Shown: one piece after another, positions 7,926 through 57,085 of the stretch
Numbering within the stretch: the stretch's first letter is position 1
How the letters are laid out: every line of letters starts with the position of its first letter
Source of the DNA: a virus
Taxonomy: Duplodnaviria > Heunggongvirae > Uroviricota > Caudoviricetes
Strand: one strand, 5' to 3'
IMG/VR virus record: IMGVR_UViG_3300045988_157791
Length of the DNA stretch: 64,000 nt
The notes under the pieces: model-generated
Told to the model about the DNA's origin: nothing
The model's database searches: none
What the model saw: the letters and a program-made list of their open reading frames with translations, nothing else
Made by a program: the position numbers and the translations under genes

Positions 7926-8032
7926 CTGGTAGGTAGTTACTTACTTATCACGATGAGCGGATGATAGCGACTGGTGGCAGTTTTTGGAAGTGGAAACGGA
8001 AGGGAGTTGTTCTGGTGGTGTCTTTTAAAAGA

Positions 8033-8087: not shown

Positions 8088-8198
8088 CATAACTTGTCGT
8101 CTTAGACGCCCAGAAGCTCTACACTTTGAGCCTGTTAAATTGATTAAAAACTTATGTGTAAAATAGAACGCATTAGTCAGTAGCAAAGAGATGCAATA

Positions 8199-9018: not shown

Positions 9019-9378
9019 TTAACCTTTCTTCATCAACTCTCGTTTGATTTCATCGGTACGCATCGTGACATCGGCAGCGGTGATCGCCTCATTCAATTTC
9101 ACGATGTCCTCGATTTCCTGCGGTGACTTCTCTGCCAGATGGAAAATGGCTGCTCGAATCACGTCAGAACGAGTGAACTTCTCGAAGCGAGGGATGAACT
9201 TCATCATCTCCAGCAGTTCGAAGTATTCGTCCTCCAGTGACATTGTGCGGCTTTTAATTTTCTCTTTGCCACGAGTCGGGCGTCCCTGTGGTCTGACTGG
9301 TTGGCGCAAAGGAGTTGTGTTCTTAGCCGGTGCATCAGGCTCTTTGCGCTTTGCTAGGTCACCCATTTTCATGGACAT
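9019..9378 (-). CDS. ParG-like partition/centromere-binding protein (ribbon-helix-helix C-terminus)
   Basis: Directly downstream of the ParA-like gene (start/stop abut at 9378); basic disordered N-terminus plus RHH-like C-terminal segment. Confidence 0.5.
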   Translation of the reverse strand: MSMKMGDLAKRKEPDAPAKNTTPLRQPVRPQGRPTRGKEKIKSRTMSLEDEYFELLEMMKFIPRFEKFTRSDVIRAAIFHLAEKSPQEIEDIVKLNEAITAADVTMRTDEIKRELMKKG

Positions 9379-10046
9379 TATTCTTCTTCCTCCAGACTCA
9401 ACAGATAATCTACAAATTCTTCAAACTCGGCTTCCGCCTTTTTGTCGCGCTCGCTACCGGTCATTTCAAAGATAGAACGACCAGACTCTTCCGCATCATC
9501 ATAGACGTTGCGGTTATATAGATTGACTGGCGCAGACTCGATTCCAAACGTCTCAACAATCTCTTTAGCCGCCAGAATGCGAGACACTTGTGATGGCAAA
9601 GCCGGGCACTGGTTCATGACCGCGCGGACCTTCACTTTATCGTTTACATTGCGAACATTGTCGATAATAGGATCGATGTCACGTAAAGATTTCAAATCAC
9701 GACGCTTAGGACGCAGCGGGATAATGATAACGTCAGCCATCAGCATCGCTTGTCGCTGAATTTCGGAGTCGAAGCCACCAGCATCTACCACTACAAACTC
9801 AGCTCTACCCTGAAGCGATTTTAGGTGCTTAATGATGTCATCCTGAACGTATGCAAAAGGAATCAGCTCAAGGTCTTCGTTCTGTCGACGGTCTTCACAC
9901 CAGCTCGTTGTCGTGCGCTGAATATCTATATCGGTAATATAAACCTTCTTCTTCTTTTTGACTTTCAGGCAAACGGCAATTTGCTGGGCAACGGTGGATT
10001 TGCCAGGCCCGCCCTTTGTGCCGCCAACCACAAAGATCTTGGTCAT
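9378..10046 (-). CDS. ParA-family partition ATPase (small type Ib-like)
   Basis: Deviant Walker A GGTKGGPGKST near the N-terminus and VVVDAGG motif; 222 aa. Confidence 0.7.
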   Translation of the reverse strand: MTKIFVVGGTKGGPGKSTVAQQIAVCLKVKKKKKVYITDIDIQRTTTSWCEDRRQNEDLELIPFAYVQDDIIKHLKSLQGRAEFVVVDAGGFDSEIQRQAMLMADVIIIPLRPKRRDLKSLRDIDPIIDNVRNVNDKVKVRAVMNQCPALPSQVSRILAAKEIVETFGIESAPVNLYNRNVYDDAEESGRSIFEMTGSERDKKAEAEFEEFVDYLLSLEEEE

Positions 10047-41952: not shown

Positions 41953-42617
41953 ACCAGAGCCTCACCAGCGTTCTCCATTTCATTACCGGTGTTAATAGCC
42001 TGCTCTTTGATGATGTTTTTTATGGTTTCTGCAACACGATCTGACGCATCGAAAGTTACTTTGAAGCGCATGGTCTGATGTTCCGCACCCACACGTTCGG
42101 TTTTCTCTCGTTTGTCGGTATCGACAGGCTCATCACTACCACGAGACAACGCCTCCAGTGCTTCAAGGTCGATTGCCGCCTCTTTTGCTAAAACCATCGA
42201 GATTTCGTCGTCATACGGGGCGATTTCAGACAGTTGATAGTCAAGTTCTGACTGAATTTCTTCAATGAAGCGTTGCAATGCGATTTGGTCGTCTTCACCG
42301 TATCGCTCGTTGTCCACCAGTGACATCTGTTTAGCTACGACATCGCTAATTTTGCCCACAGAAAGCACCGGAACCGTTGAAATTCCTTGCTCAATAGCGG
42401 CACGCCAGCGATGTTCGCCGCCGAGGATTTCAAAAAATCCATCTTCAAGTTCACGAGCCAAAATTGGCTTAAAAAAGCCCAATTTTTCGATAGAACCTTT
42501 CAGTTTTTCAAAATTCTGCGCACCAACCGAATTGGTGTTCCAGGTATTCGGGCGAAGGTTGGCAACATCAACCTGCAAAATCGTGATTTTTACATCCATT
42601 TTATTGCTACAATCCAC
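41919..42617 (-). CDS. ParB/Srx-like N-terminal domain protein (232 aa), paralogue of the downstream gene
   Basis: ParB-box-like LGGEHRWRAA; first gene of the operon, divergent from the SF2 helicase. Confidence 0.6.
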   Translation of the reverse strand: MDCSNKMDVKITILQVDVANLRPNTWNTNSVGAQNFEKLKGSIEKLGFFKPILARELEDGFFEILGGEHRWRAAIEQGISTVPVLSVGKISDVVAKQMSLVDNERYGEDDQIALQRFIEEIQSELDYQLSEIAPYDDEISMVLAKEAAIDLEALEALSRGSDEPVDTDKREKTERVGAEHQTMRFKVTFDASDRVAETIKNIIKEQAINTGNEMENAGEALVWLVDYYKERM

Positions 42618-42681
42618 TAAGTAATCACTTACTTATTATAATAGCCAAATAACATACAAAAGGCACTAAGGAAAGAGGTTT

Positions 42682-44241: not shown

Positions 44242-44243
44242 TT

Positions 44244-44522
44244 ATGAGCGAAAAGAAAACAACTTATTGCCAAGTGGCATTGTCTGATAAGGCCAATGAA
44301 AAACTTGGAAAATTTCAAATAAAACTCAAAGAGAAAAAAATCAAGATGTCTAAGGCTGAAGTTATCAATGCCATTCTGGAGACGATGACTATGGCTGAAT
44401 TTGACAAAGTCACATCTGCCGTTGGGGTTTCCGCTAAGACGCGTGAGAAAATCATGCGCATCTATGAGAACTCCAATATGACAAAAAAAGATCTAGAGGA
44501 AATACTGAGCAGGTTGCCGTAA
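44244..44522 (+). CDS. small ribbon-helix-helix-like protein (92 aa)
   Basis: Starts 2 nt after the helicase stop; KMSKAEVINAILE resembles an RHH strand-helix. Confidence 0.4.
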   Translation: MSEKKTTYCQVALSDKANEKLGKFQIKLKEKKIKMSKAEVINAILETMTMAEFDKVTSAVGVSAKTREKIMRIYENSNMTKKDLEEILSRLP

Positions 44523-44554
44523 CATTTCATATTTACCCCCTATCTACTAATTCT

Positions 44555-45154
44555 ATGATGTGCTCACTTGTTAGAAAGGAGCACATCATGAGTTGGTTAA
44601 AAGAATTATCATTTGTTGACACCACTGGCGCTAAGAAAAATCATTCTTTCTGGAAAGTCAGCGATCCTTCCGATTTTCTTGTTGGTGCTAATGCTGCTTT
44701 TGAATTGCTTAACTTTTATCAACGTTATCCTGAAATGAAACACAGTCCACTCCTGTACAGAATAACAAACGATATGAATAGGTCTGGTTTATTATCAAGT
44801 GAGTCAGCGAAAGGCTTTTTTAGCAAAATTACGCCACACATATCATTCGATTCAGCAAACGAAATTGATTATCTACCCACGAAACCTCAAGAACAATTAT
44901 CTGTACCACCTGAGAAAAAAGAAAGACGAATTGCCAGCATTGAAAATATATCGAAAGAGCTTCGCACAACAACGTTGAGGCTGCTGAACTTTCTTACGCT
45001 ACTTAATTGGATAGATGATCAAACATTGATTCCATCAACCGATGCGTTGGATAACAGAGTCCTTAGGCTGAACAAAAAATCGCAATTTGGTTTTGTGTTC
45101 ACCAAAAAAGGTGAAGATTTAATCAAAAGAAAATATAGATTATTGAATGATTAA
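44555..45154 (+). CDS. hypothetical protein (likely 188 aa from ATG at 44588)
   Basis: AAAGGAG ribosome-binding site and ATG at 44588 lie inside an 11-bp inverted repeat (ATGATGTGCTC ... GAGCACATCAT) that could sequester the site. Confidence 0.5.
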   Translation: MMCSLVRKEHIMSWLKELSFVDTTGAKKNHSFWKVSDPSDFLVGANAAFELLNFYQRYPEMKHSPLLYRITNDMNRSGLLSSESAKGFFSKITPHISFDSANEIDYLPTKPQEQLSVPPEKKERRIASIENISKELRTTTLRLLNFLTLLNWIDDQTLIPSTDALDNRVLRLNKKSQFGFVFTKKGEDLIKRKYRLLND

Positions 45155-45539
45155 TAGTCTACATGCAGGTGTATGAGAGCACCTGCATGTGACACTCATC
45201 ACATTTTTGAATGTATATACCTTCGGCTGAAAAAAGATCTTGATAGGCTGAATGATATTTGTAGGCTTCGCCTCCGAAGAAATTCGGAGGATATATGCGA
45301 CAATTTATAAAAACGTGTGACCTAAGAAATATAGTAGATGATATTGCATGTGATGAAATTAGCAAAAAAGAGAAGAACAAAAACGCCAATTAACGCTATC
45401 TACCTATAAATCTGAAGAGTTCAATAGGATGCATATCTGAAACACGCCCTCGACGATACCAAAAAGATTTGTCGAGGGCGTCGGGCTTTCCCTATGTCTG
45501 AACGATTAAATTTTACAGCAATTAAATATTTTGTATATG

Positions 45540-46340
45540 TTATTCTTCTGGTGGTACGACAAAATCGTCGAGTTTATTCTTTTCGTCTCGAAGCAACCTG
45601 ATTTCTTCTTCTGTTATGCATTTGTCATAATCTGTTTGTTCAGAATGGCACAGCGCAACTGCGAATGGATAGCCGGTGTAAGACAGCCCTCTAACAGGTT
45701 CTAATTCACCGTTGTCTTTTTTCCTAAATTTGTAAAAGTCAGGAGTGTCATAATTGGTGACGCTAACAAGAGCATATTTATCATTTTCTCTTGCATACAC
45801 TTCACTAACACCTCTCGATTCGCCCAACTCTCTACTCACATATGTCGAATCACTTGCAGCATCAAACACAGCCTGACCTAATGGAGTTTTTTTTAAATCA
45901 TCTATTTTCTCTTTTTCCTTCCTGATTTTAGATTCGTTTTCCAGATAAAGTTTCACACCATTTTCTTTACATGCTAGATTTTGGCGTTCAAAACGTAATC
46001 GTTCTCTTGCCGAGTTGGTACTTTTATCCATTGTAACGAATACAATCGGGTTACGTTCACGAACATCAAAGATGTGTGCATTGAATGCGGTCGCACCTGT
46101 ATAGGCGTTCAAGACGTTTTTGCCATTCACCTCTCCACATACCATATATGAATAGCTATTTTCACCTAACTGAATAGCTCGCATATTCGTGAACCGACCA
46201 GCATCAGGATCTAGCAGTGTAGAGCGAATATCCTTTTCAACTAGATTTATGGCTCGCTCTTCATCAGAATCACAACCTGTTAATAGTAAAGCCGCTATTA
46301 ACAATGCTAATGAGTATTTTTTATTCACCCCATTCTTCAT
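45540..46340 (-). CDS. lipoprotein (266 aa)
   Basis: Signal peptide with lipobox LLTGC; hairpin terminator CGCCCTCGAC...GTCGAGGGCG downstream. Confidence 0.55.
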   Translation of the reverse strand: MKNGVNKKYSLALLIAALLLTGCDSDEERAINLVEKDIRSTLLDPDAGRFTNMRAIQLGENSYSYMVCGEVNGKNVLNAYTGATAFNAHIFDVRERNPIVFVTMDKSTNSARERLRFERQNLACKENGVKLYLENESKIRKEKEKIDDLKKTPLGQAVFDAASDSTYVSRELGESRGVSEVYARENDKYALVSVTNYDTPDFYKFRKKDNGELEPVRGLSYTGYPFAVALCHSEQTDYDKCITEEEIRLLRDEKNKLDDFVVPPEE

Positions 46341-46442
46341 GAAACTTATTCCATAATCAATTTTTGGTGGAATGTACGGTTAGTCTGTCTACGCATCATA
46401 GAGATGTATATAATGACCAAAAAAGACTTAAAAAGGTAGACT

Positions 46443-46964
46443 ATGGTTAAAGACATCACCTACGGCATACCGGCTGAAGTCTGGCCGCGAGACTACGAAC
46501 ATGCTGAAAACATACTTATGTTCTGGCGGAAGAACAACATTCCTGTAAGAGTCACGCTTGAAGACGGTCAGGTGTTTTGCATGTACGTTCAGGGGACAAT
46601 GCCTTCCCGCAATAAGCTAGATTTATGCCCGCTTCCATATGATAAAGAAAATCGTATAAGACTCCCACTTGAGCGCATTAGCACAATTGAATCAGGTGTA
46701 ATCGATGGCATTGCTCGCGAGTTCAAAGGTAGGCTAACAATACATCCAGACTATGTTGACAATCAGCCATCACGCCGTGACTTTTTTGCGATATGTCGCA
46801 AGGCTTATCAAAACGACCAATCTATAAGGGTCTACATGGCAGACGGTCGTGAAATAGAAGGGGTGTCAAGAGGCGTTGATGCTTGTCAGGTCACTCTTAA
46901 GTTAGAAGACGGCAGAAAAATACTTGTTTTCTTCGATTGGGTTGAACGAATCCTTCCATTTTAA
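46443..46964 (+). CDS. hypothetical protein (173 aa)
   Basis: ORF followed by a clear intrinsic terminator. Confidence 0.5.
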   Translation: MVKDITYGIPAEVWPRDYEHAENILMFWRKNNIPVRVTLEDGQVFCMYVQGTMPSRNKLDLCPLPYDKENRIRLPLERISTIESGVIDGIAREFKGRLTIHPDYVDNQPSRRDFFAICRKAYQNDQSIRVYMADGREIEGVSRGVDACQVTLKLEDGRKILVFFDWVERILPF

Positions 46965-46976
46965 ATCTATAAGGGT

Positions 46977-47006
46977 AATAACCGGCTAAGTCCGGTTATT
47001 ATTTTA
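46977..47006 (+). terminator. intrinsic terminator
   Basis: AATAACCGG-CTAAGT-CCGGTTATT hairpin followed by ATTTTA. Confidence 0.65.
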
Positions 47007-47155
47007 CATGCCATTCATTTAAAACTCTTTCAATGCCACTCTGTATAAATATATAAGGTTAAAAGCCTGAATTGATTATTTATTTAGGGAACACCTTCGA
47101 CGATCTTGCTTTTATTTCTAGGACTTTCATCCCTGCAAAAATTTAAAAAAAACAC

Positions 47156-47183
47156 TTGCAATCTTTTTTCACGTATCGATAAT
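47156..47183 (+). promoter_or_regulatory. sigma70-like promoter
   Basis: TTGCAA, 16-nt spacer, GATAAT, about 70 bp upstream of the 47250 ORF. Confidence 0.45.
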
Positions 47184-47249
47184 TGAACTCGTCGAAAGCG
47201 AGCTGGCTAACGACAGCAAAAAATAAATTCATTTTAATTTTTCGTAAGG

Positions 47250-47909
47250 ATGTCCATCATGGCTAACATTATCATTTCTAAAAAATCCATCGTTGAAGCT
47301 GCTTCCATTGTATCCGATGAACTGCGCGAAAAAGCAGATCTGGCAACTCAAACATATAACGAACATTATAAAAATGGTACGCACACTAAAGCAGACAAAG
47401 CAAATATGCAAGCTGCGACCACTAAACTTGCTTACTTCATCAACAACGTTGTAAACGCTGTAGAAGAAGAAAAATTATGCTCTGTTTTCTACTATGCGAT
47501 CAAAGCAAGTAAACAAGCGCCAGAAGCATTTTTCCGTGATGCAATGGCTAACAGTTATTCTCTGGAAAAACTGGTTTATCTGGTCAAATCAATTAAATCT
47601 GGTAAATGCGTTTATTCCGTCGCTGATATGTCAGGATCTCGTGTATTCGCTTTAATCGATATGATTAACGACGAGATCGACACGTTCACCAATGGCGCTG
47701 TTTTCGATTTAATGAATGAAGCAAAAAAAGCGTGCGAAATTAAATTGGACGCTGGCTATACTCAAGCCAACCAGTTGATCAATCTTTGCGAACGTCTCGG
47801 ACTTGTTGAAAAAGTCAAAGGAGCTGGGAGCGCGAAAGCTGGTACTCAGCAATATCGCTTCATTAAAAATGATTTCTATAACTATCTGGCTGATGCTTTT
47901 AAAGCGTAA
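47250..47909 (+). CDS. hypothetical protein (219 aa)
   Basis: ORF with upstream promoter-like elements and downstream terminator. Confidence 0.5.
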   Translation: MSIMANIIISKKSIVEAASIVSDELREKADLATQTYNEHYKNGTHTKADKANMQAATTKLAYFINNVVNAVEEEKLCSVFYYAIKASKQAPEAFFRDAMANSYSLEKLVYLVKSIKSGKCVYSVADMSGSRVFALIDMINDEIDTFTNGAVFDLMNEAKKACEIKLDAGYTQANQLINLCERLGLVEKVKGAGSAKAGTQQYRFIKNDFYNYLADAFKA

Positions 47910-47918
47910 TTAATGGAA

Positions 47919-47945
47919 TCTGGCGCCCACTATGGGCGCTTTTAA
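47919..47945 (+). terminator. intrinsic terminator (GCGCCCACTATGGGCGC hairpin plus T-run)
   Basis: Perfect stem-loop followed by TTTT; identical hairpin repeated at 48194-48220. Confidence 0.7.
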
Positions 47946-47957
47946 GGAGTTTTAATC

Positions 47958-48188
47958 ATGTATGTTCTTATCGCTGGCGTTAACGTGCGCAATGAATATT
48001 TTGTTAATCGCATCGCTGGGATCGCTGGCTACGCTGGGCGCTCAGTCGAGTTTATCGATGAAACAACGCGTAAAATTGACTTATTGAACGACCAGGAGCG
48101 AAAAAAAGCTGAGGTGAACGACGCTGATATATTTTTAATGTTAAAAGCGTTTGTAGAAATGGGATTTGAAATCAGTTTACATAAATAA
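47958..48188 (+). CDS. hypothetical small protein (76 aa)
   Basis: AAGGAG ribosome-binding site upstream; flanked by two identical terminator hairpins. Confidence 0.5.
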   Translation: MYVLIAGVNVRNEYFVNRIAGIAGYAGRSVEFIDETTRKIDLLNDQERKKAEVNDADIFLMLKAFVEMGFEISLHK

Positions 48189-48193
48189 AATCG

Positions 48194-48220
48194 AGCGCCC
48201 ACTATGGGCGCTTTTTTCGT
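48194..48220 (+). terminator. intrinsic terminator, second copy of the same hairpin
   Basis: GAGCGCCCACTATGGGCGCT followed by TTTTTT. Confidence 0.7.
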
Positions 48221-48240
48221 TTCCAATACTTCCACAATAA

Positions 48241-48266
48241 CGCGCCATTGATGGCGCGTTTTTTAT
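48241..48266 (+). terminator. intrinsic terminator
   Basis: CGCGCCATTGATGGCGCG hairpin followed by TTTTTTATT. Confidence 0.65.
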
Positions 48267-48683
48267 TGTCTTTGACTCACTCCAACAACATAAAAATAAG
48301 CGCCAAAATAACGCCATAAACGCGCTTTTATATCCTTGCCAGTACATACCCATTACTTAACACATTAACGCGCTTAAAATGCGTTATATTGCGCTATAAC
48401 GTATGGCTAATCATTGGCTTTTAGTCTTGCTATGTGATCCGCGTTTATTTGTCGGCGCGGATCGGCATTTTGTGTTGTTTTGTATCCGCTCGCATATGAT
48501 TGCCACGTTGGGCAACGTGTACGCGCTTACAGTGATTTACCCACGGATTCACATAATCACATAGCGAAAGCTATCTGGATGGCCCAGGGGCTGAAACCCC
48601 CACCAGCGATACCCCAGCGCCGCTACGCAATTTCTGGCGCGATTCCGGGTTTCTCCCGCTCAGTTTTCTACATAAAGGCGAAT

Positions 48684-48803
48684 GCAGCCGTTTCCCGAAA
48701 AAATCCTGGCCGTTTCCCGTCGGCTCATGAATGCGTTCCTCGCCGTTTCTGAAAATTTCCCTGCGGCAGCTGGTGGCTATAGAGAAAGGGCCGTTTCTGG
48801 CCC
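48684..48803. repeat. iteron-like direct repeat array 1 (four units of GCCGTTTCCCG-AAAA type)
   Basis: GCAGCCGTTTCCCGAAAA, CTGGCCGTTTCCCGTCGG, CTCGCCGTTTCTGAAAA, GGGCCGTTTCTGGCCC at roughly 22-30 bp spacing. Confidence 0.6.
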
Positions 48804-48812
48804 TCTTCTCAG

Positions 48813-49295
48813 TTACACGCCATCAAGGATGTGGATGCGGTTGCTTGCGTATACATTCAGCATAAAGTTAGCGCAAAACAGTTTCCATGTGTCAACGCCA
48901 GCGGTATACGTAATGTTTTTGCATTTAATTGCATTGTTGGCGATCCGCATCCCCTGCGATACTGCTTCATCGTCGGAAAATTTGAACGACGATTGAGTTT
49001 TAATCCAGACAGAAATCTGCGTAGCGAACTCAATCAGCTTGGACTGGCAGAATCGCCCGGAGCGCACCGGAAAGACGAACGTTCCGAATCCAGAATTTAC
49101 CACATATGCTTTCTCAAATACCCGCGAGTAACGACGATTGCCAATGATGTTGCGTACAATAATGCATTTTTCTTGTTCTGACAGTTCTACCGTCTCATTG
49201 TGACGCCAGGCACCAAGTACTCGTTTTTCAATGTCAGAGAACGTTACAGCGATATTGCCATGTGCGGGTGCGTTTACAGTAGCGATAAAATTCAT
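48813..49295 (-). CDS. hypothetical protein (160 aa) with own operator cassette
   Basis: ATG at 49295 preceded by a conserved cassette (GATAAT-like box then AGAAAACAATTTGTT palindrome). Confidence 0.5.
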   Translation of the reverse strand: MNFIATVNAPAHGNIAVTFSDIEKRVLGAWRHNETVELSEQEKCIIVRNIIGNRRYSRVFEKAYVVNSGFGTFVFPVRSGRFCQSKLIEFATQISVWIKTQSSFKFSDDEAVSQGMRIANNAIKCKNITYTAGVDTWKLFCANFMLNVYASNRIHILDGV

Positions 49296-49335
49296 GATTA
49301 ATTCCTTATCGTAAATAACAAATTGTTTTCTTGTT

Positions 49336-49385
49336 GGCGTTAATTATCGTTGTACGAATAAGGCGTCAAAGTGGAAAGTTGCGGT
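49336..49385 (-). promoter_or_regulatory. conserved promoter/operator cassette
   Basis: AACAAATTGTTTTCTTGTTGGCGTTAATTATCG...GAATAAGGCG; near-identical cassettes at 49798-49853, 51451-51502, 51934-51988 and 54735-54810. Confidence 0.5.
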
Positions 49386-49499
49386 AGCCGGACGGGAACA
49401 GGTGGGTTTGTCGGTTGCCTGGAGGTAAGAGGTTGGTGTTTTTAGCCTGAGGGAAACAGGATGGTCATTTAAGGCCACCAGCATTGGTGGCCTTAGTCT

Positions 49500-49781
49500 T
49501 TAGTGGAGCAGACCGATGTCGATGGTATCCCCTGAATCACCCACACGGATCATCAGCATGGCGAAGGCGTTTAGTGGATAACTGGCGTGCCATTCAGGGA
49601 AGCGGTCATCTCGCATGAAGTCGGCAATGTCGTAAACGCAGCCCTCAAAGTGGAAGAATCGCGTGCTTACCTGCTCGTCATATTCCACATGATCCATTTC
49701 TTGCTGTTCTGTTTCCGGCAAGTCCAGCCATGATTCAAGGAATACATTTTGTGCTTTAGGGGTAATGGTGAAATCAGTCAT
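49500..49781 (-). CDS. small acidic protein (about 93 aa)
   Basis: Likely start MTDF at 49781 immediately downstream of a conserved cassette; Asp/Glu-rich. Confidence 0.5.
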   Translation of the reverse strand: MTDFTITPKAQNVFLESWLDLPETEQQEMDHVEYDEQVSTRFFHFEGCVYDIADFMRDDRFPEWHASYPLNAFAMLMIRVGDSGDTIDIGLLH

Positions 49782-50116
49782 GAGCATATCCTCACTGCGT
49801 AAACATGTTGTTTTCTTGTTGGTGTAATTATCGCAGTGTAGATAAGGCATAAAAGAAGTTAATACAGGCTGAATACACAAGAAAGGTTCTGGAAGTTGAT
49901 AACCAGGTTTCAAACTAACCTTCGGTTATTAAAAGTCATTTAAGGCCACCAATGCTGGTGGCCTTAATAATTATCGCCCGATTACGCTAAGGATCTTTTC
50001 CTCAACTGATTTGTTGTTGCGACTAAACTGCCTTGCGTATCTGATGACAGAAGAGGCGTTTTGCTTTCTGACCATCTCGGCTCTTTCCTTCAGGCGTTTC
50101 TTGAAATCGCCCATAT

Positions 50117-50533
50117 TTACCACCAGGCACGGAACGTCAGTCTATTATTGTGAAAGTCGTGGTTCTTAATCAGATCTTCCACAAGCTCTTTCAACTCCCC
50201 CACATCATGCCAGTAACCTTCATCGTACTCCTGACTGCCGAAGAAAAAACCTTCCCGGGTAGGCAAGTACTCTTCGCAATTACTTTCGTTTATGTGCATC
50301 AAATGAGCCTTCAGAAAACAAATGTCATTCATCGTTAATTCTAAAAGCTCACAATTTTCGACTTCACCTACGTTGCGCTCCATCCACCCAACGAGCGCAT
50401 TGAACTTACGGAAGTAAGCAACCTGCTTTCTGGATGCCTCGTTATTCAGATCGTTTTTAGGCTGCGTCTCGATATAGATATCAAGTCCCATGATGGTTTC
50501 CTTATTAAGTTGCTTCAGTGAAATCATTTTCAC
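50117..50533 (-). CDS. hypothetical acidic protein (start probably MGLDIYIE near 50491)
   Basis: ORF with AGAAAACAGATTGTT palindrome at 50549-50563 upstream. Confidence 0.45.
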   Translation of the reverse strand: MKMISLKQLNKETIMGLDIYIETQPKNDLNNEASRKQVAYFRKFNALVGWMERNVGEVENCELLELTMNDICFLKAHLMHINESNCEEYLPTREGFFFGSQEYDEGYWHDVGELKELVEDLIKNHDFHNNRLTFRAWW

Positions 50534-50608
50534 AAATCAGATAAGGCAGAAAACAGATTGTTATCGGGCATAAGAAAATGGCGCGGTTTACGCGCCATTC
50601 AAAGAGGA

Positions 50609-51070
50609 TTAAGCGAATACGCTTTCAGGGATTAAGGTGTCAGCAGGAATGCCGGAGGTAATGCGCAGGCCGTACTGACCAATCCAGGTAGTGTTGGTAT
50701 TCAGGCTGGAGGCGAATACGGTGTTAACCATATTCATCATGGTTTCAAACACCTCTTCATCAACCTGGCGGAAGTAGTTCTCGATTTTCAGCAGCAGCGG
50801 GTCAGTTGCATCGAAAATAGACTGGTATTGAGTCGCGTACTCGCCGCCGGAGGCATCACCTTTACGCACGATCGTACTGGCCTGGACTTCGGCACCAGTT
50901 TCGGTGTTGTACGTAACAACGGTGATTTTTGCCACATTCTTACCTTCGGCGGTTTCAGAGGCATAGTAAACATCAACTGTCAGTTTTTCGCGTTTAACGG
51001 TCATTTCACTCTCCGTAGTGTATTGGTTATTTTTATATTCTATGATCGTAAGTATGTACTTACAATACAA
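50609..51070 (-). CDS. hypothetical protein (start probably MTVKREK near 51004)
   Basis: TAAGTATGTACTTAC motif and a hairpin immediately upstream. Confidence 0.45.
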   Translation of the reverse strand: MYCKYILTIIEYKNNQYTTESEMTVKREKLTVDVYYASETAEGKNVAKITVVTYNTETGAEVQASTIVRKGDASGGEYATQYQSIFDATDPLLLKIENYFRQVDEEVFETMMNMVNTVFASSLNTNTTWIGQYGLRITSGIPADTLIPESVFA

Positions 51071-51130
51071 AAAAGCCCCGTAAGGATGGCGGGGCTGTCG
51101 TACGGTCGACTAATTACCACTTGCACATTA

Positions 51131-51472
51131 TCAGGCTATTGCCATCACTGATGCTCTCTGAATCTCTTGCTGGGCCACGCGGTTAACTTCCATCAAAGCC
51201 AGTTCGAGCTGATGTTCCGGCCACATTCTTTGAAATGCCACCCAGCCTTTTCCACGCTGGCGACGAACATTCATTACATAACGAGTAAAGGTGTTTTTAT
51301 CGAAAGACACCGCTGTTTCACGGAATAGACGAATAGAGGTTCCATTGGCAACGATATCCAGCAAAGTTAATTGAGCAACCAGTGCAGGCTTCTCTTTTCT
51401 CTTCTGGTCTTTGTCCAGACCAAGAACCAATGATTTTTTCATCACAACTCCGTAAACAACTTGTTTTCTCAA
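51131..51472 (-). CDS. hypothetical small basic protein (start probably MKKSLVLG at 51442)
   Basis: Conserved cassette AACAACTTGTTTTCTCAATGGCGTAAATAATACC directly upstream. Confidence 0.45.
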   Translation of the reverse strand: MRKQVVYGVVMKKSLVLGLDKDQKRKEKPALVAQLTLLDIVANGTSIRLFRETAVSFDKNTFTRYVMNVRRQRGKGWVAFQRMWPEHQLELALMEVNRVAQQEIQRASVMAIA

Positions 51473-51595
51473 TGGCGTAAATAATACCAGTAAGAAAACG
51501 GCTACAAAGCATATTGATCAGGTGCATGAGCGATATGCAGGTTCTTCCCTGCGGCTATAGAGAAATTAAGCCAGCAAAGCTGGCTTTGGTTGGGG

Positions 51596-51946
51596 TTACT
51601 CGAATACTTCAAGAAACTCCTGAACGTCCCAATGCTGGACGAGGTGAAGATAGACCTTAGAAATCACGTCATTTTCGCTATCGCATGTGAAGTAGTACTT
51701 CTGGCTGCGGTTGTATGTGTCCACACAAAATTCGCTCATATCCATAAAGTCAGCATCTTCACCCATGTCGCAAATCATCAAAGCAGGTGCGTCATCACGA
51801 GTCATCAGCTCAAGCACCCACCGCGAATTGATCAGAGTGGAAGACCAACCTTCTAACTCATAAAACTGATCAAACTCTTTTTGAGTTAATTTCTTGATTT
51901 GGTTGATGTCGATATTTGCAAACATAAAGCAACCCTTAAACAACAT
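51596..51946 (-). CDS. small acidic protein (start probably MFANIDIN near 51925)
   Basis: Conserved cassette AACAACATGTTTTCTTATTGGTGTTATTATCGC directly upstream; Asp/Glu-rich. Confidence 0.45.
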   Translation of the reverse strand: MLFKGCFMFANIDINQIKKLTQKEFDQFYELEGWSSTLINSRWVLELMTRDDAPALMICDMGEDADFMDMSEFCVDTYNRSQKYYFTCDSENDVISKVYLHLVQHWDVQEFLEVFE

Positions 51947-52283
51947 GTTTTCTTATTGGTGTTATTATCGCAATAACGCATAGGCGAAAAAGGATTTTAT
52001 TCCGGTGAATGTGGTTTTGGCAGTGAGTTTTCAGGTTCAGTACCGAGTACACTTTTTACATTATTCTGATTTAGTAGCCGAAGGTGGCTGGTGGGCAGAA
52101 TAATCATCTCCCCGAAAACCTACTGAAATCGATTGTGACCCGTTGGCTGTCTGGCACAATTACGCTGTAGCTGGGCATTCAGAGGGAATCCAGCGGTAAG
52201 TAAGTTCGCCTGCACGTGAGCGCCTCTCTTCTTCCCGCACATTACAGGTGGGTAGCCGCAACTCTCCCTCTCGCTATACCGGT

Positions 52284-52420
52284 ACGCCGCCGTTCCTGAA
52301 CCGGCATCGAGCCTTTTCCCGAAATCCACACAGGCAACTCGACCGTTTCCCTGAAAACCTCCAGCCGTTCCCCGAAGGCAACCCAGCCGTTTCTGTAGCG
52401 GGATGCAGCCTTTTCCCTGT
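52284..52420. repeat. iteron-like direct repeat array 2 (about six units)
   Basis: CGCCGTTCCTGAA, GAGCCTTTTCCCGAAA, CGACCGTTTCCCTGAAAA, CAGCCGTTCCCCGAAGG, CAGCCGTTTCTGTAGC, GCAGCCTTTTCCCTG; same orientation as array 1. The overlapping track ORF 52120-52578 is probably not a gene. Confidence 0.6.
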
Positions 52421-52579
52421 ATGGACCGAAGGCTGACCGTAGGGGTGTTACGGGGGATAAAATCAGGAGTTGAATAAATACGAAAAAGGAGGCGACACCC
52501 CTCCTTCCCTCCCAACTTATACATACCTGTCTTGTTCGCTATACATGTTGTGTTTTCTTCGTGTTTTATCTGTTTCAAC

Positions 52580-53400
52580 CTCTCTATAGGCGTTAATGCT
52601 CACTCCTTCCAGAACGTTCTATACGGCGACTATTTCTGTTGGTGAATTGGGTGTGTTGTTTTCCCTGTCGGTGTATGTGGTTTCGTTCGTTTTGCGATGG
52701 TTCTTCTATGGGGTGTTCTCGTCGTTTTGGTGATTGTTCTTCTCCGTGTATGGAGTAATGGCAGGTGGGCGATTCCTTTCGTTATTGTGTTTGAGTTGTT
52801 TGTCTGGAGTGCGTGAAGGGCTTTTGTAGTTATTCGTGTATTGGGTAATGGCGTTTCCCGTGATTGTTATGTTTCGTGTCTTTTGGGATTGAGAGAAACC
52901 TTGCGGTTACAGGCTTCGTTGGGGTTTCAGTGATTCTGATGTTTCTTCGCTGTTTGGGTAATGGCGTGTCGTGGGTATCGCGCGTATGAATGTTTTCGGA
53001 TTGCCTGTGAAAGTTAGGTTGGTTGTCCGGTAGCCTGGGAAGAAGAGGTGGGTCTTTTCGGTAGCCTGCCATAAAGAGGTTGGTTGTTTTTGGTAATGGC
53101 ATATGTGTTATTTAGTTGTTTTGTTATACCTGAAAATAAGTTGTTTATATGGTTATGTAACGCAACGGGAGCGATTTTGAGCGTGTGTTTTTGTTGGTAG
53201 TGTGTTGGGTCGTCTGTGGTGAAAATTGGACGCTGTGGCGCTGTCTGCTGCGTAGAGTTACGGGTATAAGAAGTGATGTGTGAAAACGTCAATTTTTTAG
53301 ACCAAATCGGGTGAAAGCGTTGACGTTTCGTTGATCTGTTATTTAGTTGTTTTCTTATTTGTATAAACAACCATAACCTATTGATATTTAATGATGTGAT
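52580..53400. repeat. about 800-bp strongly GT-skewed non-coding region with dispersed GGTAATGGC repeats
   Basis: Plus strand is G+T-rich throughout; GGAGTAATGGCAGG, TGGGTAATGGCGTT, TGGGTAATGGCGTG, TGGTAATGGCATAT at about 100-bp intervals; minus-strand ORFs are low-complexity. Confidence 0.55.
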
Positions 53401-53489
53401 TGCTGGTATGGGAGGGGAGTAGTGGCGATCAACGGATTCTTATAGAAAAGAATCAAATTGTGACCGCCATTATCAATGAGTTGCAACCG

Positions 53490-54059
53490 TTAGTTGTTCA
53501 GATAAACATTTGGAACACGGACGTAGAAGTTCCTGTCGCCGGTAAGTTCCAGAGTAATGTTAATGTCATTACCATTGTCTAGTGTAGCCGTTGCTCTATA
53601 GAACTTATCCGTCACCTTGTCCTCTATTGTCACCTTCATACATTTTGGTGCAGTCGAACCGTTATTCTCTTTCAGAATAGTTGTCACGAGAGGGCAGGCT
53701 GCTTCTTCAAGAGCAACCTCGTCCTTGTGTGGGATGCCGATGAAGATAACCCAAGCCAGCGACGCAACGATTATGATAAATGGCACTCTGCTGCCTTTTG
53801 TAATAGTCGCGCGCTTCCAGAGATAGACAGGCAGGAGGAATACCCCCCATAGAATTGAAGGTGGTTCACAGCCAGACTCCGATAGAGCCATTCTGTCAGC
53901 TACTAACAAACCGATGGTAGTTACACCCCCAATTATAATAGCGTAATTGGTATACTCTTCCGGCGATACTCCAAAGAAGAAAGGCATGAACGCTAGAATC
54001 CACGCATAAATGTTATTCAGAGGTTTTGTTTGTTGGTTCTGGGTTTCCATCACATCCAT
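53490..54059 (-). CDS. integral membrane protein (189 aa)
   Basis: Several hydrophobic helices (IYAWILAFMPFFFG, IIIGGVTTIGLLV, LWGVFLLPVYLW, FIIIVASLAWVIFIGI) and a hydrophilic C-terminal domain. Confidence 0.5.
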   Translation of the reverse strand: MDVMETQNQQTKPLNNIYAWILAFMPFFFGVSPEEYTNYAIIIGGVTTIGLLVADRMALSESGCEPPSILWGVFLLPVYLWKRATITKGSRVPFIIIVASLAWVIFIGIPHKDEVALEEAACPLVTTILKENNGSTAPKCMKVTIEDKVTDKFYRATATLDNGNDINITLELTGDRNFYVRVPNVYLNN

Positions 54060-54894: not shown

Positions 54895-56928
54895 TTACTT
54901 AACCTGGTGGCCAGGTTTAGCACCAGCATCCGGGCTTAACAGGAAGATATCTTTCCCGCCGGGGCCAGCAGCCATCACCATGCCTTCAGAGATACCGAAG
55001 CGCATTTTACGTGGTGCCAGGTTAGCCACCATAATGGTGTGACGACCAATCAGTGCCTGCGGATCCGGGTAGGCAGAACGAATACCGGAGAAGACATTGC
55101 GTTTTTCACCGCCGAGATCCAGTGTCAGGCGCAGCAGTTTGTCAGAACCTTCAACAAACTCTGCGTTTTCGATCAGCGCTACGCGCAGGTCAACTTTGGC
55201 GAAGTCGTCAAAGGTGATGGTTTCCTGAATCGGATCATCTGCCAGTGGGCCAGTAACTGGCGCGGCAGCTGCTTTCACTTCTTCTTTAGACGCTTCCACC
55301 AGTGCTTCAACCTGCTTCATATCGATGCGGTTATACAGTGCCTTGAACGGATTTACTTTATGGCCCAGCAGCGGTTGCTGGATACCATCCCAGGTCAGTT
55401 CTGTATTCAGGAATGCTTCTGCACGTTCAGTCAGTTTCGGCAGTACCGGCTTCAGGTACGTCATCAGCACGCGGAACAGGTTAATGCCCATAGAGCAAAT
55501 CGCCTGCAGATCGGCATCGCGTCCTTCCTGCTTCGCCACCACCCACGGAGCCTGTTCATCGACATAGCGGTTAGCCAGGTCAGCCAGTGCCATGATTTCA
55601 CGGATAGCTTTACCAAATTCGCGGCTTTCCCACGCTTCACCAATCACTTCAGCGGCATCAGTGAAGGTTTTGTACAACTGCGGGTCAGCCAGCTCGCTTG
55701 CCAGCACACCGTCAAAACGCTTATTGATAAAGCCAGCGTTACGGGACGCCAGGTTAACCACTTTGTTCACGATATCGGCATTCACACGCTGAACGAAATC
55801 CTCCAGGTTGAGATCGATATCATCAATGCGCGAAGAGAGTTTCGCAGTGTAGTAGTAACGCAGGCTGTCAGCGTCAAAATGATTCAGCCAGGTGCTGGCT
55901 TTAATAAAGGTGCCGCGAGACTTGGACATCTTCGCGCCGTTCACCGTCACATAGCCATGAACAAACAGGTTGGTCGGCTTGCGGAAGTTGCTGCCTTCCA
56001 GCATGGCAGGCCAGAACAGGCTGTGGAAGTAAACGATATCTTTACCGATGAAGTGGTACAGCTCGGCGGTGGAGTCTTTCTTCCAGTATTCATCGAAGCT
56101 TACGCTGTCGCCGCGCTTGTCGCACAGATTCTTGAAAGAACCCATGTAGCCAATCGGTGCGTCCAGCCAGACGTAGAAATATTTGCCCGGCGCGTTCGGA
56201 ATTTCAAAACCGAAGTAAGGGGCGTCGCGGGAGATATCCCACTGTTGCAGGCCAGATTCAAACCACTCCTGCATTTTATTTGCCACCTGCTCCTGCAACG
56301 CACCGCTGCGGGTCCATGCCTGCAACATTTCGCTGAAAGAGGGCAGATCAAAGAAGAAGTGTTCAGAATCACGCATTACCGGCGTAGCACCAGAAACCAC
56401 CGATTTCGGTTCAATCAGTTCAGTCGGGCTGTAGGTCGCGCCGCAGACTTCACAGTTATCGCCGTATTGATCTGGCGCTTTACATTTCGGGCAGGTGCCT
56501 TTCACAAAACGGTCCGGCAGGAACATGCCTTTTTCCGGATCGTACAGCTGAGAGATGGTGCGGTTTTTAATAAAACCGTTTTCTTTCAGGCGAGAGTAGA
56601 TAAGTTCTGACAACTGGCGGTTCTCTTCGCTGTGCGTCGAGTGATAGTTGTCATAGCTGATGTTAAAGCCTGCGAAATCAGTCTGATGTTCCTGACTCAT
56701 TTCGCCAATCATCTGCTCCGGTGTGATACCAAGCTGCTGAGCTTTAAGCATGATCGGCGTGCCGTGGGCATCGTCGGCGCAGATGAAGTTGACCTCGTGG
56801 CCGCGCATTCGCTGGTAACGGACCCAGACATCAGCCTGGATGTGCTCCAGCATATGGCCGAGGTGGATTGAGCCGTTAGCGTACGGCAGCGCGCACGTCA
56901 CCAGAATTTTCTTCGCGACTTGGGTCAT
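54895..56928 (-). CDS. metG: methionyl-tRNA synthetase
   Basis: 677-aa protein from [31 protein letters not shown] with class I HIGH-type (HLGH) and KMSKS motifs and C-terminal tRNA-binding domain. The track ORF extends upstream to a non-ATG start. Confidence 0.95.
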
Positions 56929-57085
56929 AGTAGGCATTACTTCTTTGTAGTGAAAAGGGGCTTGATAGTAACAAAATGGCCTTATGTCTGCCATGTGATA
57001 ACAGCATTTCTCATAAATGATTAAATGTCGTAGCTGGAGTACACTACAAGGCGACAATTGCGCAAATTAAAATAAAGGAGACGGG

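What the first reader, a model, noticed from the sequence alone, without database searches (positions are those of the whole stretch)
48684..52420. Two iteron-like direct repeat arrays about 3.5 kb apart
Arrays of 4 and about 6 direct repeats of a CCGTTTCCC(G)AAAA-type unit at 20-30 bp spacing (48684-48803 and 52284-52420, same orientation) bracket a set of small genes. Paired iteron arrays flanking a gene block are characteristic of plasmid or phage replication origins and copy-control/incompatibility loci, or of centromere-like sites. With the ParA/ParG pair and toxin-antitoxin genes this suggests a plasmid-like replicon, but no canonical Rep initiator was recognised between the arrays.
Basis: partly seen in the sequence, partly recalled or inferred. 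Interest (0 to 1): 0.6.

Follow-up and report, generated by a model that had tools for sequence, protein, structure and literature searches.

The report
Conserved protein-binding repeat arrays in phage-plasmid
Two real, deeply conserved clusters of evenly spaced DNA repeats in an SSU5/pHCM2-type phage-plasmid are not its plasmid replication origin; they are most likely docking sites for a previously uncharacterised winged-helix protein encoded next to them, and their function has not been tested.

Summary
Repeats with core CCGTTTCCC cluster at 48687-48766 (3 units plus a half unit) and 52289-52417 (6 units). All are on the + strand, non-coding, spaced in whole helical turns (mostly 22 bp), and essentially absent elsewhere.

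The window is an SSU5/pHCM2/pLF82(Cyrano)-type phage-plasmid. Its plasmid replicon is a Rep3-family initiator with unrelated ~21-bp iterons and lies outside the window. No Rep gene, DnaA box or adjacent AT-rich element accompanies the arrays, so the origin/iteron reading is not supported.

Both arrays recur in about 80 relatives and in five lineages of 34-54% GC. Cores are conserved and spacers drift. The arrays always flank a variable island of small self-contained gene cassettes.

The best candidate binder is the adjacent 219-aa winged-helix protein (47250-47909). It is the only local gene always linked to the repeats, and its recognition helix is nearly invariant. Published RNA-seq shows it silent in the lysogen, like lytic genes, whereas ParA, its partner and RepA are expressed. 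This suggests a lytic or establishment-phase role as a boundary, loop or origin-like element. A centromere for the distant ParA/RHH pair remains a live rival. Function is unproven.

The parts
48687..48766 (+). Array 1: three full repeats (48687-48696, 48709-48718, 48742-48751; core GCCGTTTCC/T) plus a half unit TTTCCCTGCGG (48756-48766). A conserved Chi site GCTGGTGG follows at 48769-48776.
   Evidence: Cores are about 97% conserved against about 79% for spacers over 72 non-redundant relatives.
48788..48803 (-). Terminator hairpin of the gene at 48813-49295 (GGGCC-GTTTCT-GGCCC).
   Evidence: Compensatory change to GGGGC...GCCCC in other clades. Its position is directly 3' of the gene.
52289..52417 (+). 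Array 2: six repeats starting at 52289, 52311, 52342, 52364, 52386 and 52408.
   Evidence: Cores are about 86% conserved against about 68% for spacers over 63 non-redundant relatives.
47250..47909 (+). Candidate binder: a 219-aa protein with an N-terminal helical domain and a C-terminal winged helix. The recognition helix is YTQANQLINLCER (about residues 170-182). It equals CYRAN_113 and SSU5_120.
48193..48464 (+). Three consecutive plus-strand terminator-like hairpins (48193-48213, 48239-48260, 48435-48464) between the wHTH operon and array 1.
48813..51925 (-). The island bracketed by the arrays: small genes of unknown function (48813-49295, 49500-49781, 49971-50123, 50117-50491, 50609-51004, 51131-51442, 51596-51925). 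Several (4 of the 6 checked) carry the promoter, AAGAAAACAAnTTGTTT leader and terminator module.
   Evidence: Island content varies, with arrays 1.5-4.5 kb apart. Only the genes at 51131-51442 (69 of 69 loci) and 48813-49295 are universal.
52483..52509 (-). Minus-strand intrinsic terminator immediately upstream (in the minus sense) of array 2.
52520..53490 (.). Rest of the 1.5-kb gene-free gap that holds array 2. It is strongly G+T-rich on the + strand, carries GGGTAATGGC repeats (52755-53100) and has AT-rich tracts at its far end (53079-53167, 53318-53410).
   Evidence: The same strand asymmetry recurs in four lineages.
9019..10046 (-). Rival binder system: type Ib ParA (9378-10046) and its 119-aa RHH-like partner (9019-9378), 39 kb from the arrays.
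   Evidence: No repeat array lies upstream of parA. Both genes are expressed in the lysogen.

Best explanation
The two arrays are clusters of binding sites for one sequence-specific DNA-binding protein, built into the phage backbone of an SSU5/pHCM2/pLF82-type phage-plasmid. Each site has an asymmetric core of about 10 bp (CCGTTTCCC). Sites are spaced by whole helical turns, mostly 22 bp, so the bound proteins sit head-to-tail on one face of the DNA.

The most likely binder is the 219-aa winged-helix protein encoded 0.8 kb upstream of array 1. This protein is switched off in the plasmid (lysogenic) state. The arrays would therefore be occupied during lytic growth or just after infection. They would form two oriented nucleoprotein complexes, possibly bridged through the protein's helical N-terminal domain, that delimit the variable island of small gene cassettes.

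I take the most likely consequence to be architectural or regulatory: a boundary, roadblock or loop that isolates or co-regulates the island. A role as recognition sites of a lytic-phase origin is the main alternative.

Shown: the repeats, their phasing, their conservation, their non-coding nature, their separation from the plasmid Rep system, and their linkage to the wHTH gene. Inferred: that wHTH is the binder, the timing of binding, any bridging, and the function.
For: Reality, phasing and conservation:
- Of 440 adjacent-repeat intervals in 112 non-redundant arrays, 229 are exactly 22 bp; the rest cluster at 11, 31-34 and 42-44 bp.
- Cores are more conserved than spacers (0.97 vs 0.79 and 0.86 vs 0.68).
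- Both arrays are present in the same orientation in 67 of 84 sequences (83 loci plus the window) by a strict pattern, and in SSU5 and CP027615.

Evidence for the wHTH protein as binder:
- The model is confident and has a C-terminal winged helix.
- The gene accompanies array 1 in 76 of 78 loci.
- Across natural derivatives it is the only local candidate always retained with the repeats. pMT1 lacks ParA/RHH, the 249-aa protein and DnaB. p3RM15115 lacks both ParB-like proteins, the ABC ATPase and TerS. L159 lacks the anchor gene, p103, p131, the FljA-like gene and p76.
- In five lineages (34-54% GC, wHTH identity down to 33%) C(G/T)TTTCCC clusters lie on the wHTH gene's strand directly 3' of it, and again in the second gene-free gap in all four lineages whose contig reaches it (L159 ends before it). 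The recognition helix stays (Y/F)TQxxQxxKLCERxGxV.
- The protein family exists only in these elements.
- One asymmetric 10-bp core per 22 bp fits one roughly 25-kDa protein per site (inference).

Timing: CYRAN_113 is at the RNA-seq floor in the LF82 lysogen, like the terminase, tail and helicase-loader genes, whereas ParA, its partner, RepA and the repressor are expressed (PMC9928086).

Boundary role: both arrays sit directly after minus-strand terminators, at the exact edges of an island whose content varies between relatives.
Against: - There is no binding data of any kind.
- Linkage of the gene and the sites could be plain synteny.
- The RHH partner's predicted DNA-reading strand is equally conserved, and RHH was not assessable in L159, L161 or L162 because the contigs are short.
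- The arrays in pMT1 and p3RM15115 might be non-functional relics.
- Expression evidence comes from one strain and one study. Low-level expression could suffice for a DNA-binding protein.
- The proposed consequence (boundary or loop) is inferred from position only.
Confidence: 0.4

Rival explanations
1. Centromere. The arrays are the parS/parC-like sites of the type Ib ParA (9378-10046) and its RHH partner (9019-9378). They would be bound in the plasmid state and used to segregate the roughly 5-copy plasmid, with sites dispersed away from the par operon as in phage-plasmid N15.
For: - The par operon has no direct-repeat array of its own. The only conserved element in its promoter is the family-wide leader palindrome.
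- Apart from the Rep iterons and the GGGTAATGGC repeats, these are the only non-coding iteron-like arrays in a complete 113-kb relative.
- ParA and its partner are expressed in the lysogen.
- The partner's beta-strand segment IKSRTMS is conserved at 48% overall identity while the array core is unchanged.
- A 62-kb derivative without virion genes keeps both the arrays and the par genes.
Against: - The arrays are 39 kb from parA. Type Ib centromeres normally overlap the parA promoter (established knowledge).
- pMT1 keeps an intact array 1 but has no ParA/RHH and uses a P1-type ParAB.
- The unit is a 10-bp asymmetric core plus about 12 bp of non-conserved spacer. Known RHH centromeres have contiguous 4-11 bp units (established knowledge).
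- In distant lineages the repeats stay next to the wHTH gene.
Confidence: 0.2
2. Lytic-phase replication origin. The repeats are initiator-binding sites of a bipartite phage origin (compare P4 ori and crr, SPP1 oriL and oriR, and the lambda ori iterons). The wHTH protein would be the origin-binding protein, and the 1.5-kb gene-free gap would be the origin region.
For: - Iteron-like 22-bp phasing.
- Two clusters 1.5-4.5 kb apart.
- A 1.4-1.9 kb non-coding gap conserved in four lineages, with AT-rich tracts at its far end in three of them.
- wHTH is co-silent with the helicase-loader, helicase and primase genes in the lysogen.
Against: - No AT-rich unwinding element adjoins either array, and there are no DnaA boxes.
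- The gene is 40 kb from the helicase and primase.
- A more origin-like region lies right next to the 249-aa/DnaB/primase genes at 7930-8200, with an AT-rich palindrome, a direct-repeat pair and a strict DnaA box.
Confidence: 0.15
3. Plasmid Rep iterons: origin plus copy-control/incompatibility arrays of the P1/RepFIB type.
For: The form matches: direct repeats, about 22-bp spacing, two clusters in the same orientation flanking genes.
Against: - No Rep gene lies between the arrays or anywhere in the window.
- The family's Rep3 initiator lies elsewhere with more than 20 iterons of its own, unrelated in sequence.
- Rep and its iterons differ between SSU5 and the E. coli lineage (50% identity, different iteron sequence), while these arrays are unchanged.
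- The array motif is absent around RepB.
- No DnaA box or unwinding element is present.
Confidence: 0.03
4. Sites for a host factor, or for another element-encoded protein not examined here (for example the prophage repressor, or the ParB-like pair). They would act as transcriptional roadblocks or replication-fork barriers at the one place where gene orientation converges.
For: - Array 1 lies in the only convergent zone of the genome, 48.2-48.8 kb.
- All repeats share one orientation, which suits a polar barrier.
- The ParB-like proteins are conserved in all five lineages.
Against: - p3RM15115 keeps both arrays but lacks the ParB-like genes.
- I know of no E. coli factor with this motif (own knowledge, not a database test).
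- The motif is confined to this element family; four unrelated IMG/VR contigs with the pattern are short tandem repeats in unrelated DNA.
Confidence: 0.12

Closest known systems
P1 / RepFIB-type iteron replicons (oriR iterons plus incA-type control iterons flanking repA)
   Same: Direct repeats with a conserved core, spaced by whole helical turns (22 or 33 bp), in two same-orientation clusters that flank genes. One binding protein per roughly 22 bp is plausible.
   Different: There is no Rep gene between or near the arrays. The element's real Rep3 initiator and iterons lie elsewhere and are unrelated in sequence. There is no DnaA box or unwinding element. The candidate binder has one MarR-like winged helix rather than a WH1-WH2 pair, and it is silent in the plasmid state.
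Phage P4 ori + crr (and SPP1 oriL/oriR): two clusters of initiator-binding repeats kilobases apart
   Same: A bipartite arrangement of the same short repeat a few kb apart in a phage that can live as a plasmid. The candidate binder shows lytic-phase expression.
   Different: The P4 alpha protein is a primase-helicase and SPP1 G38P lies next to its loader and helicase. Here the candidate is a small wHTH protein 40 kb from the replisome genes. No AT-rich region adjoins the repeats.
Plasmid centromeres made of direct-repeat arrays (R1/pSK41 parC, pB171 parC1/parC2, TP228 parH, pSM19035 omega sites, TubR-tubC of pBtoxis; dispersed sopC-like sites of N15)
   Same: Arrays of phased direct repeats in two clusters. 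An orphan type Ib ParA/RHH pair in the same element lacks an identified centromere. TubR and AspA, which are wHTH centromere binders, are among the fold matches of the candidate binder.
   Different: The arrays are 39 kb from the par operon and not in its promoter. The units are not contiguous. pMT1 keeps array 1 without that par system. There is no TubZ. The wHTH gene is not expressed in the plasmid state.
Coliphage 186 Apl / P2 Cox / lambda Xis: small (w)HTH proteins that coat arrays of phased direct repeats at two separate loci
   Same: A small phage DNA-binding protein, head-to-tail binding to helically phased direct repeats, and two separate target regions, acting during the switch to lytic growth.
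   Different: Those sites are spaced about 10-11 bp apart and lie at the switch promoters and attP. Here the spacing is 22 bp, and the sites lie after terminators at the edges of a cassette island. No recombinase site or switch promoter is evident.

Membership tests
Iteron-type plasmid origin / copy-control locus (Rep3, RepFIB, P1 oriR-incA) | Direct repeats of about 17-22 bp at helical (about 22 bp) spacing | tested here: met
   229 of 440 intervals are exactly 22 bp; the others are near 11, 33 and 44 bp. In the window the spacings are 22/33/10 and 22/31/22/22/22.
Iteron-type plasmid origin / copy-control locus (Rep3, RepFIB, P1 oriR-incA) | Cognate Rep initiator gene adjacent to or between the iteron sets | tested here: not met
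   No Rep domain in any gene between or beside the arrays. No Rep3 homologue anywhere in the window. The Rep3 initiator with its own iterons lies elsewhere.
Iteron-type plasmid origin / copy-control locus (Rep3, RepFIB, P1 oriR-incA) | Iteron sequence matches and co-varies with the element's Rep | tested here: not met
   The Rep iterons are CTCTCTACAGTGGWTAG (SSU5) or GTATGCTG/CAGCGGTA (E. coli lineage), and the two Rep proteins are 50% identical. The GCCGTTTCCC arrays are the same in both lineages and absent around Rep.
Iteron-type plasmid origin / copy-control locus (Rep3, RepFIB, P1 oriR-incA) | AT-rich unwinding element and DnaA box(es) next to the iterons | tested here: not met
   No DnaA box in 47.8-54.2 kb. 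The nearest AT-rich tracts are 0.5-0.7 kb away. There is no GATC cluster.
Iteron-type plasmid origin / copy-control locus (Rep3, RepFIB, P1 oriR-incA) | The fragment supports autonomous replication or exerts incompatibility | not testable with these tools
   This needs cloning and incompatibility assays.
Type Ib partition centromere (ParA + RHH centromere-binding protein) | Array(s) of short direct repeats bound by the RHH partner | tested here: inconclusive
   The arrays exist. The partner has only a weak RHH-type hit. No binding data exist. The unit is a 10-bp core plus about 12 bp of variable spacer, unlike the contiguous units of known RHH centromeres.
Type Ib partition centromere (ParA + RHH centromere-binding protein) | Centromere adjacent to, and usually overlapping, the parA promoter (autoregulation) | tested here: not met
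   The arrays are 39-43 kb from parA. The parA upstream region has no such repeats, and its only conserved element is the leader palindrome.
Type Ib partition centromere (ParA + RHH centromere-binding protein) | Sites and par genes co-occur | tested here: inconclusive
   They co-occur in SSU5, CP027615, p3RM15115 and most plasmids. pMT1 keeps array 1 but has no ParA/RHH. The par genes could not be assessed in L159, L161 or L162.
Type Ib partition centromere (ParA + RHH centromere-binding protein) | Centromere-binding protein expressed in the plasmid state | tested here: met
   CYRAN_28 (ParA) and CYRAN_29 (partner) have log2 values of 5-11 in the LF82 lysogen.
Winged-helix centromere binders (TubR-tubC type III; AspA-ParB-ParA) | wHTH protein encoded next to direct-repeat arrays, together with its motor (TubZ, or ParA plus adaptor) in one operon | tested here: not met
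Bipartite phage lytic origin (P4 ori/crr, SPP1 oriL/oriR) | Two clusters of initiator-binding repeats kilobases apart | tested here: met
   The arrays are 1.5-4.5 kb apart in 67 of 84 sequences (83 loci plus the window).
Bipartite phage lytic origin (P4 ori/crr, SPP1 oriL/oriR) | The binder is a replication initiator (helicase/primase, or recruits them) and an unwinding element adjoins the repeats | tested here: not met
   The wHTH protein has no helicase, primase or Rep fold. No AT-rich element is adjacent. Recruitment of the replisome cannot be tested here.

The most novel reading that the evidence does not exclude
The arrays plus the neighbouring 219-aa protein form a previously undescribed cis/trans module specific to SSU5-supergroup phage-plasmids (pHCM2, pMT1, pLF82 and Klebsiella/Enterobacter relatives). 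A lytic-phase winged-helix protein of a new family would polymerise on two oriented, 22-bp-phased site arrays. It would either fire a bipartite lytic origin or form a polar boundary or loop around a hypervariable accessory-gene island. This would be a new kind of genome-organising element in phage-plasmids.
Probability: 0.3. Interest if true: 0.7.

Novelty: new variant of a known kind. Interest (0 to 1): 0.5.

Why it matters
SSU5-type phage-plasmids are common in clinical Enterobacteriaceae: pHCM2 of S. Typhi, pMT1 of Y. pestis, pLF82/Cyrano, S. sonnei pWPMR2, and many Klebsiella and Enterobacter plasmids. More than 700 PLSDB records match this region. They carry resistance and fitness cargo, and here they carry metG and apbC. 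Their biology beyond Rep/Par typing is almost unstudied.

The arrays are among the most conserved non-coding DNA in the family. They mark the edges of the island where accessory cassettes, including toxin-antitoxin pairs, are exchanged.

Knowing whether they are a centromere, a lytic origin or a boundary element would have three uses:
- It would identify a missing maintenance or replication function.
- It would explain where cargo is inserted.
- It would give a specific handle for curing or tracking these elements, such as an incompatibility fragment or a titration target.

If the arrays are merely regulator sites, the finding is a useful annotation but ordinary.

Tried and rejected
- Rfam scan of 44-56 kb (E up to 1): only sub-threshold chance hits.
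- Tandem Repeats Finder does not report the arrays, because the spacers are too divergent.
- Literature: searches for SSU5/pHCM2/pMT1 iterons or origins, and for the motif string, found nothing on these repeats.
- Pattern scan of IMG/VR for two adjacent cores found the same SSU5-type contigs plus four unrelated contigs that share nothing else with the window. These are chance or unrelated short tandem repeats.
- Conservation of candidate proteins between the window and SSU5 did not discriminate, because all are conserved.
- Conservation of DNA-reading elements in the 48-49%-identity Klebsiella lineage did not discriminate between wHTH and RHH.
- The search for the RHH partner outside SSU5-type elements found none. 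The one non-SSU5 hit is an IS-truncated remnant.
- The open-frame test over the arrays was uninformative for such short segments. The non-coding status rests on indels and on the core/spacer conservation pattern instead.
- p76 (47958-48188) is rejected as binder: it is present in only 40 of 78 loci.
- p103 (51131-51442) is rejected as a likely DNA binder: it has a beta-meander plus helix with NTF2/cystatin-like matches only.
- The anchor protein and FljA-like protein are disfavoured: both are absent from the L159 locus, which still has repeats next to the wHTH gene.
- PADLOC: none of the six island proteins scanned matches a defence model.
The BFVD search gave only generic HTH hits.
- A Chi site next to array 1 is not special in itself, because Chi is enriched element-wide (17 in 64 kb).

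Full report
**What the window is.** The 4.3-kb region matches Escherichia phage Cyrano (pLF82) at 98%, other E. coli phage-plasmids at 93-98%, and Salmonella phage SSU5 at 76%. It also matches 727 PLSDB plasmids from Klebsiella, Escherichia, Enterobacter, Yersinia (pMT1), Salmonella and others, nearly all non-mobilisable and about 105-115 kb. A complete relative, pNT1F31-113kb, shows that the window corresponds to about 64 kb of such an element. This stretch covers ligase, primase, a DnaB-like helicase, ParA, a GNAT toxin-antitoxin pair, tail, head and terminase genes, two ParB-N-domain proteins, a DEAD-box helicase, the region of interest, and then metG and apbC as plasmid cargo. Cyrano is a functional, inducible phage-plasmid with about 5.5 copies per cell (PMC9928086).

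**The observation.** The repeats are real.
- On the + strand, full units start at 48687, 48709 and 48742, with a half unit at about 48756.
- Six further units start at 52289, 52311, 52342, 52364, 52386 and 52408.
- The degenerate core GCCKTTYCY occurs 13 times in 64 kb against 4.2 expected. No shuffle out of 100 reached 13, and 9 of the 13 matches lie in the two arrays. ACCGTTTCC at 52342 is a tenth unit that this pattern misses; it is found. Clusters of this size are expected fewer than 1e-7 times by chance.
- In the whole 113-kb relative and in SSU5, the motif clusters nowhere else.
It changes by compensatory substitutions in other clades.

**Conservation and geometry.** I collected 83 related loci with 64-98% identity in the adjacent gene.
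- Array 1 always abuts the 3' end of the gene at 48813-49295.
- Array 2 lies 1.5-4.5 kb further on, on the same strand.
- Alignments show near-invariant cores and drifting spacers, with 1-2-nt indels. Mean column conservation is 0.97 against 0.79 for array 1 and 0.86 against 0.68 for array 2. The DNA is therefore constrained as sites, not as a coding frame.
- Over 112 non-redundant arrays, 229 of 440 adjacent intervals are exactly 22 bp. The rest cluster at 11, 31-34 and 42-44 bp, which are integer numbers of helical turns.
- The core is asymmetric. A GAAA that sometimes follows it sits at a variable distance, so no dyad is conserved (listing).

**Not the plasmid origin.**
- In SSU5 the plasmid replicon is SSU5_069, a Rep3-family (WH1+WH2) initiator. 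It is flanked on both sides by more than 20 iterons of the type CTCTCTACAGTGGWTAG at about 21-bp spacing.
- pMT1 and the E. albertii derivative p3RM15115 have annotated RepA/RepB at the equivalent place.
- In the E. coli lineage the iterons read GTATGCTG/CAGCGGTA and lie at the record start, outside the window.
- No Rep homologue or Rep iteron occurs in the window, and the array motif is absent around RepB.
- The two Rep proteins are only 50% identical and their iterons differ, yet the GCCGTTTCCC arrays are the same in both lineages.
- No DnaA box, adjacent AT-rich element or GATC cluster accompanies the arrays.
- A more origin-like stretch lies at 7930-8200, next to the 249-aa/DnaB/primase genes. 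It has an AT-rich palindrome, a direct-repeat pair and one of the window's three strict DnaA boxes.

**The local setting.**
- Both arrays lie directly downstream of minus-strand terminators (48788-48803 and 52483-52509).
- Array 1 is in the genome's only convergent zone. There the one plus-strand operon (42682-48188) ends in three terminators and meets the minus-strand genes.
- Between the arrays lie six or seven small genes of unknown function (PHROG families only). Several (4 of the 6 checked) have the same module: promoter, leader AAGAAAACAAnTTGTTT, ORF, terminator.
- Island content varies between relatives. It holds a ParE/RelE pair in p3RM15115. Only the genes at 51131-51442 (69 of 69 loci) and 48813-49295 are universal.
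- Array 2 sits in a 1.5-kb gene-free gap whose remainder is strongly G+T-rich on the + strand.

**Who binds?** I tested the candidates one by one.
- The ParA partner (9019-9378) has a weak RHH-type hit.
- Its family has only 22 hits among 1.84 billion cluster representatives, all from such elements.
- p103 is a beta-meander plus helix and not a DNA-binding fold.
- p76 is missing from half of the loci.

Natural derivatives give an intersection test:

| Element | Arrays kept | Candidates lost |
|---|---|---|
| pMT1 | array 1 | ParA/RHH, the 249-aa protein, DnaB |
| p3RM15115 (62 kb, no virion genes) | both | both ParB-like proteins, the ABC ATPase, TerS |
| L159 (distant relative, 34% GC) | repeats just 3' of its wHTH gene | anchor gene, p103, p131, the FljA-like gene, p76 |

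Only the wHTH gene is always present with the repeats.

In five lineages (34-54% GC, wHTH identity down to 33%), clusters of C(G/T)TTTCCC lie on the wHTH gene's strand in the gap directly after it, and again in the second gene-free gap in all four lineages whose contig reaches it (L159 ends before it). The recognition helix remains (Y/F)TQxxQxxKLCERxGxV.

The RHH partner's beta-strand is equally conserved in the one lineage where it could be compared, so RHH is not excluded. However, one asymmetric 10-bp core per 22 bp suits one roughly 25-kDa winged-helix protein per site better than RHH dimers, which in known centromeres occupy contiguous 4-11-bp units (inference from established knowledge).

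**When?** In the published LF82 RNA-seq (PMC9928086):

| Gene | Product | log2 range in the lysogen |
|---|---|---|
| CYRAN_28 | ParA | 5.2-10.1 |
| CYRAN_29 | ParA partner (annotated there as RelE/ParE) | 6.3-10.8 |
| CYRAN_63 | RepA | 6.6-8.3 |
| CYRAN_45 | repressor | 6.4-10.4 |
| CYRAN_113 | wHTH | 2.3-3.9 in eight of ten samples, 5.5-5.7 in the two 6-h macrophage samples |

The detection floor is 2.32. The wHTH gene behaves like the terminase, tail and helicase-loader genes. If wHTH is the binder, the arrays work in lytic growth or establishment, not in steady-state partition.

**Verdict.**
- The interpretation as a plasmid origin or copy-control locus is not supported.
- The centromere reading remains possible (about 0.2).
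- The best-supported reading (about 0.4) is a conserved module made of a new winged-helix protein and two oriented arrays of its sites, which delimit a variable cassette island and act outside the lysogenic state. A lytic-origin role (about 0.15) is the main alternative consequence.
- None of this has been tested experimentally, and I found no description of these repeats in the literature.

Noticed in passing
window minus strand at about 54762, 53355, 52558, 51953, 51469, 49816, 49331, 39311/39282, 10097 and 7167: A palindromic promoter-proximal leader motif, AAGAAAACAAnTTGTTT, marks the start of at least nine transcription units: the island cassettes, parA, the DnaB operon, the terminase operon and the gene-free gap. 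It is the only element conserved in the parA promoter across three lineages. It may be the operator of a global repressor (P1 C1-like dispersed operators) or a 5'-UTR target.
   Followed up: partly
window 52520-53400 (also L156 14766-15797, L161 14091-14700, L162 12271-13020): The gene-free gap beside array 2 is strongly G+T-rich on the + strand (GC skew up to +0.48, AT skew down to -0.55) in four lineages with unrelated sequence and GC content. A minus-strand promoter module lies at about 53355 and a terminator at 52509-52483. Together these would give an ~850-nt C/A-rich, G-poor non-coding transcript, which could be rut-like or sponge-like. Alternatively the asymmetry reflects a strand-specific DNA function.
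   Followed up: partly
window 52755-53100: Four dispersed GGGTAATGGC repeats (starts 52755, 52845, 52958, 53093; spacing 90-140 bp) lie inside the skewed gap. They are conserved as GGGwGATGGCAGGTAG in Klebsiella plasmid CP027615. This is a third unassigned family of repeated sites in the element.
   Followed up: partly
window 7930-8200: This is a candidate lytic origin next to the 249-aa/DnaB-like helicase/primase genes. It has an AT-rich palindrome (8033-8087), a direct-repeat pair (7971 and 8012) and a strict DnaA box at 8155.
   Followed up: partly
whole window; locally 48600, 48769, 49475, 49954 and 52087: Chi (GCTGGTGG) is about 8-fold enriched: 17 sites in 64 kb against about 2 expected, and 28 in the 113-kb relative. 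Five sites lie within 3.5 kb around the island. Two of them are built into the stems of the twin terminator hairpins at 49469-49496 and 49940-49967, and one is conserved next to array 1.
   Followed up: partly
window 46443-46964 (+): A full-length FljA-like protein (Pfam Flag1_repress, E = 5e-81, with a weak Hfq/LSM-like C-terminal signal) is encoded just upstream of the wHTH gene. FljA is an mRNA-binding translational repressor in Salmonella. It could target the shared leader of the cassette genes.
   Followed up: no
window 54895-58186: Complete copies of metG (methionyl-tRNA synthetase) and apbC are carried as cargo on the phage-plasmid. The same cargo is present in pNT1F31-113kb, Cyrano and p3RM15115.
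   Followed up: partly
window 9019-9378 (-); Cyrano CYRAN_29: The 119-aa gene directly downstream of parA is annotated in Cyrano as a 'RelE/ParE putative toxin'. Here it shows only an RHH-type hit and the position of a ParG/omega-like ParA partner, so that annotation is probably wrong. The published list of Cyrano 'toxins' expressed in lysogeny may therefore include a partition protein.
   Followed up: partly
window 48813-51925 and the equivalent region of 83 loci: The island between the arrays behaves as an exchange hotspot. Gene content differs between close relatives, with eight combinations of five cassette genes and a ParE/RelE pair in p3RM15115. The cassettes share a promoter/leader module, and two (48813-49295 and 51596-51925) also share a terminator module (TTCCCTGCGG...CTATAGAGAAA plus a hairpin), which could drive recombination.
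   Followed up: partly
window 40589-44241: A conserved block of two ParB-N-domain proteins, an ABC-type ATPase and a divergently transcribed DEAD/DEAH helicase lies between the terminase region and the wHTH operon in every lineage examined. The helicase gives weak PADLOC hits to PbeA and the ATPase to mad3/mad8. Its role is unknown.
   Followed up: no
NC_003134.1 (pMT1) 38084-38542: In Y. pestis pMT1 an IS1541 insertion or deletion has removed the rest of the island, array 2 and the gene-free gap. pMT1 also lacks the type Ib ParA/RHH pair and the helicase/primase block, and carries a P1-type ParAB instead.
   Followed up: yes
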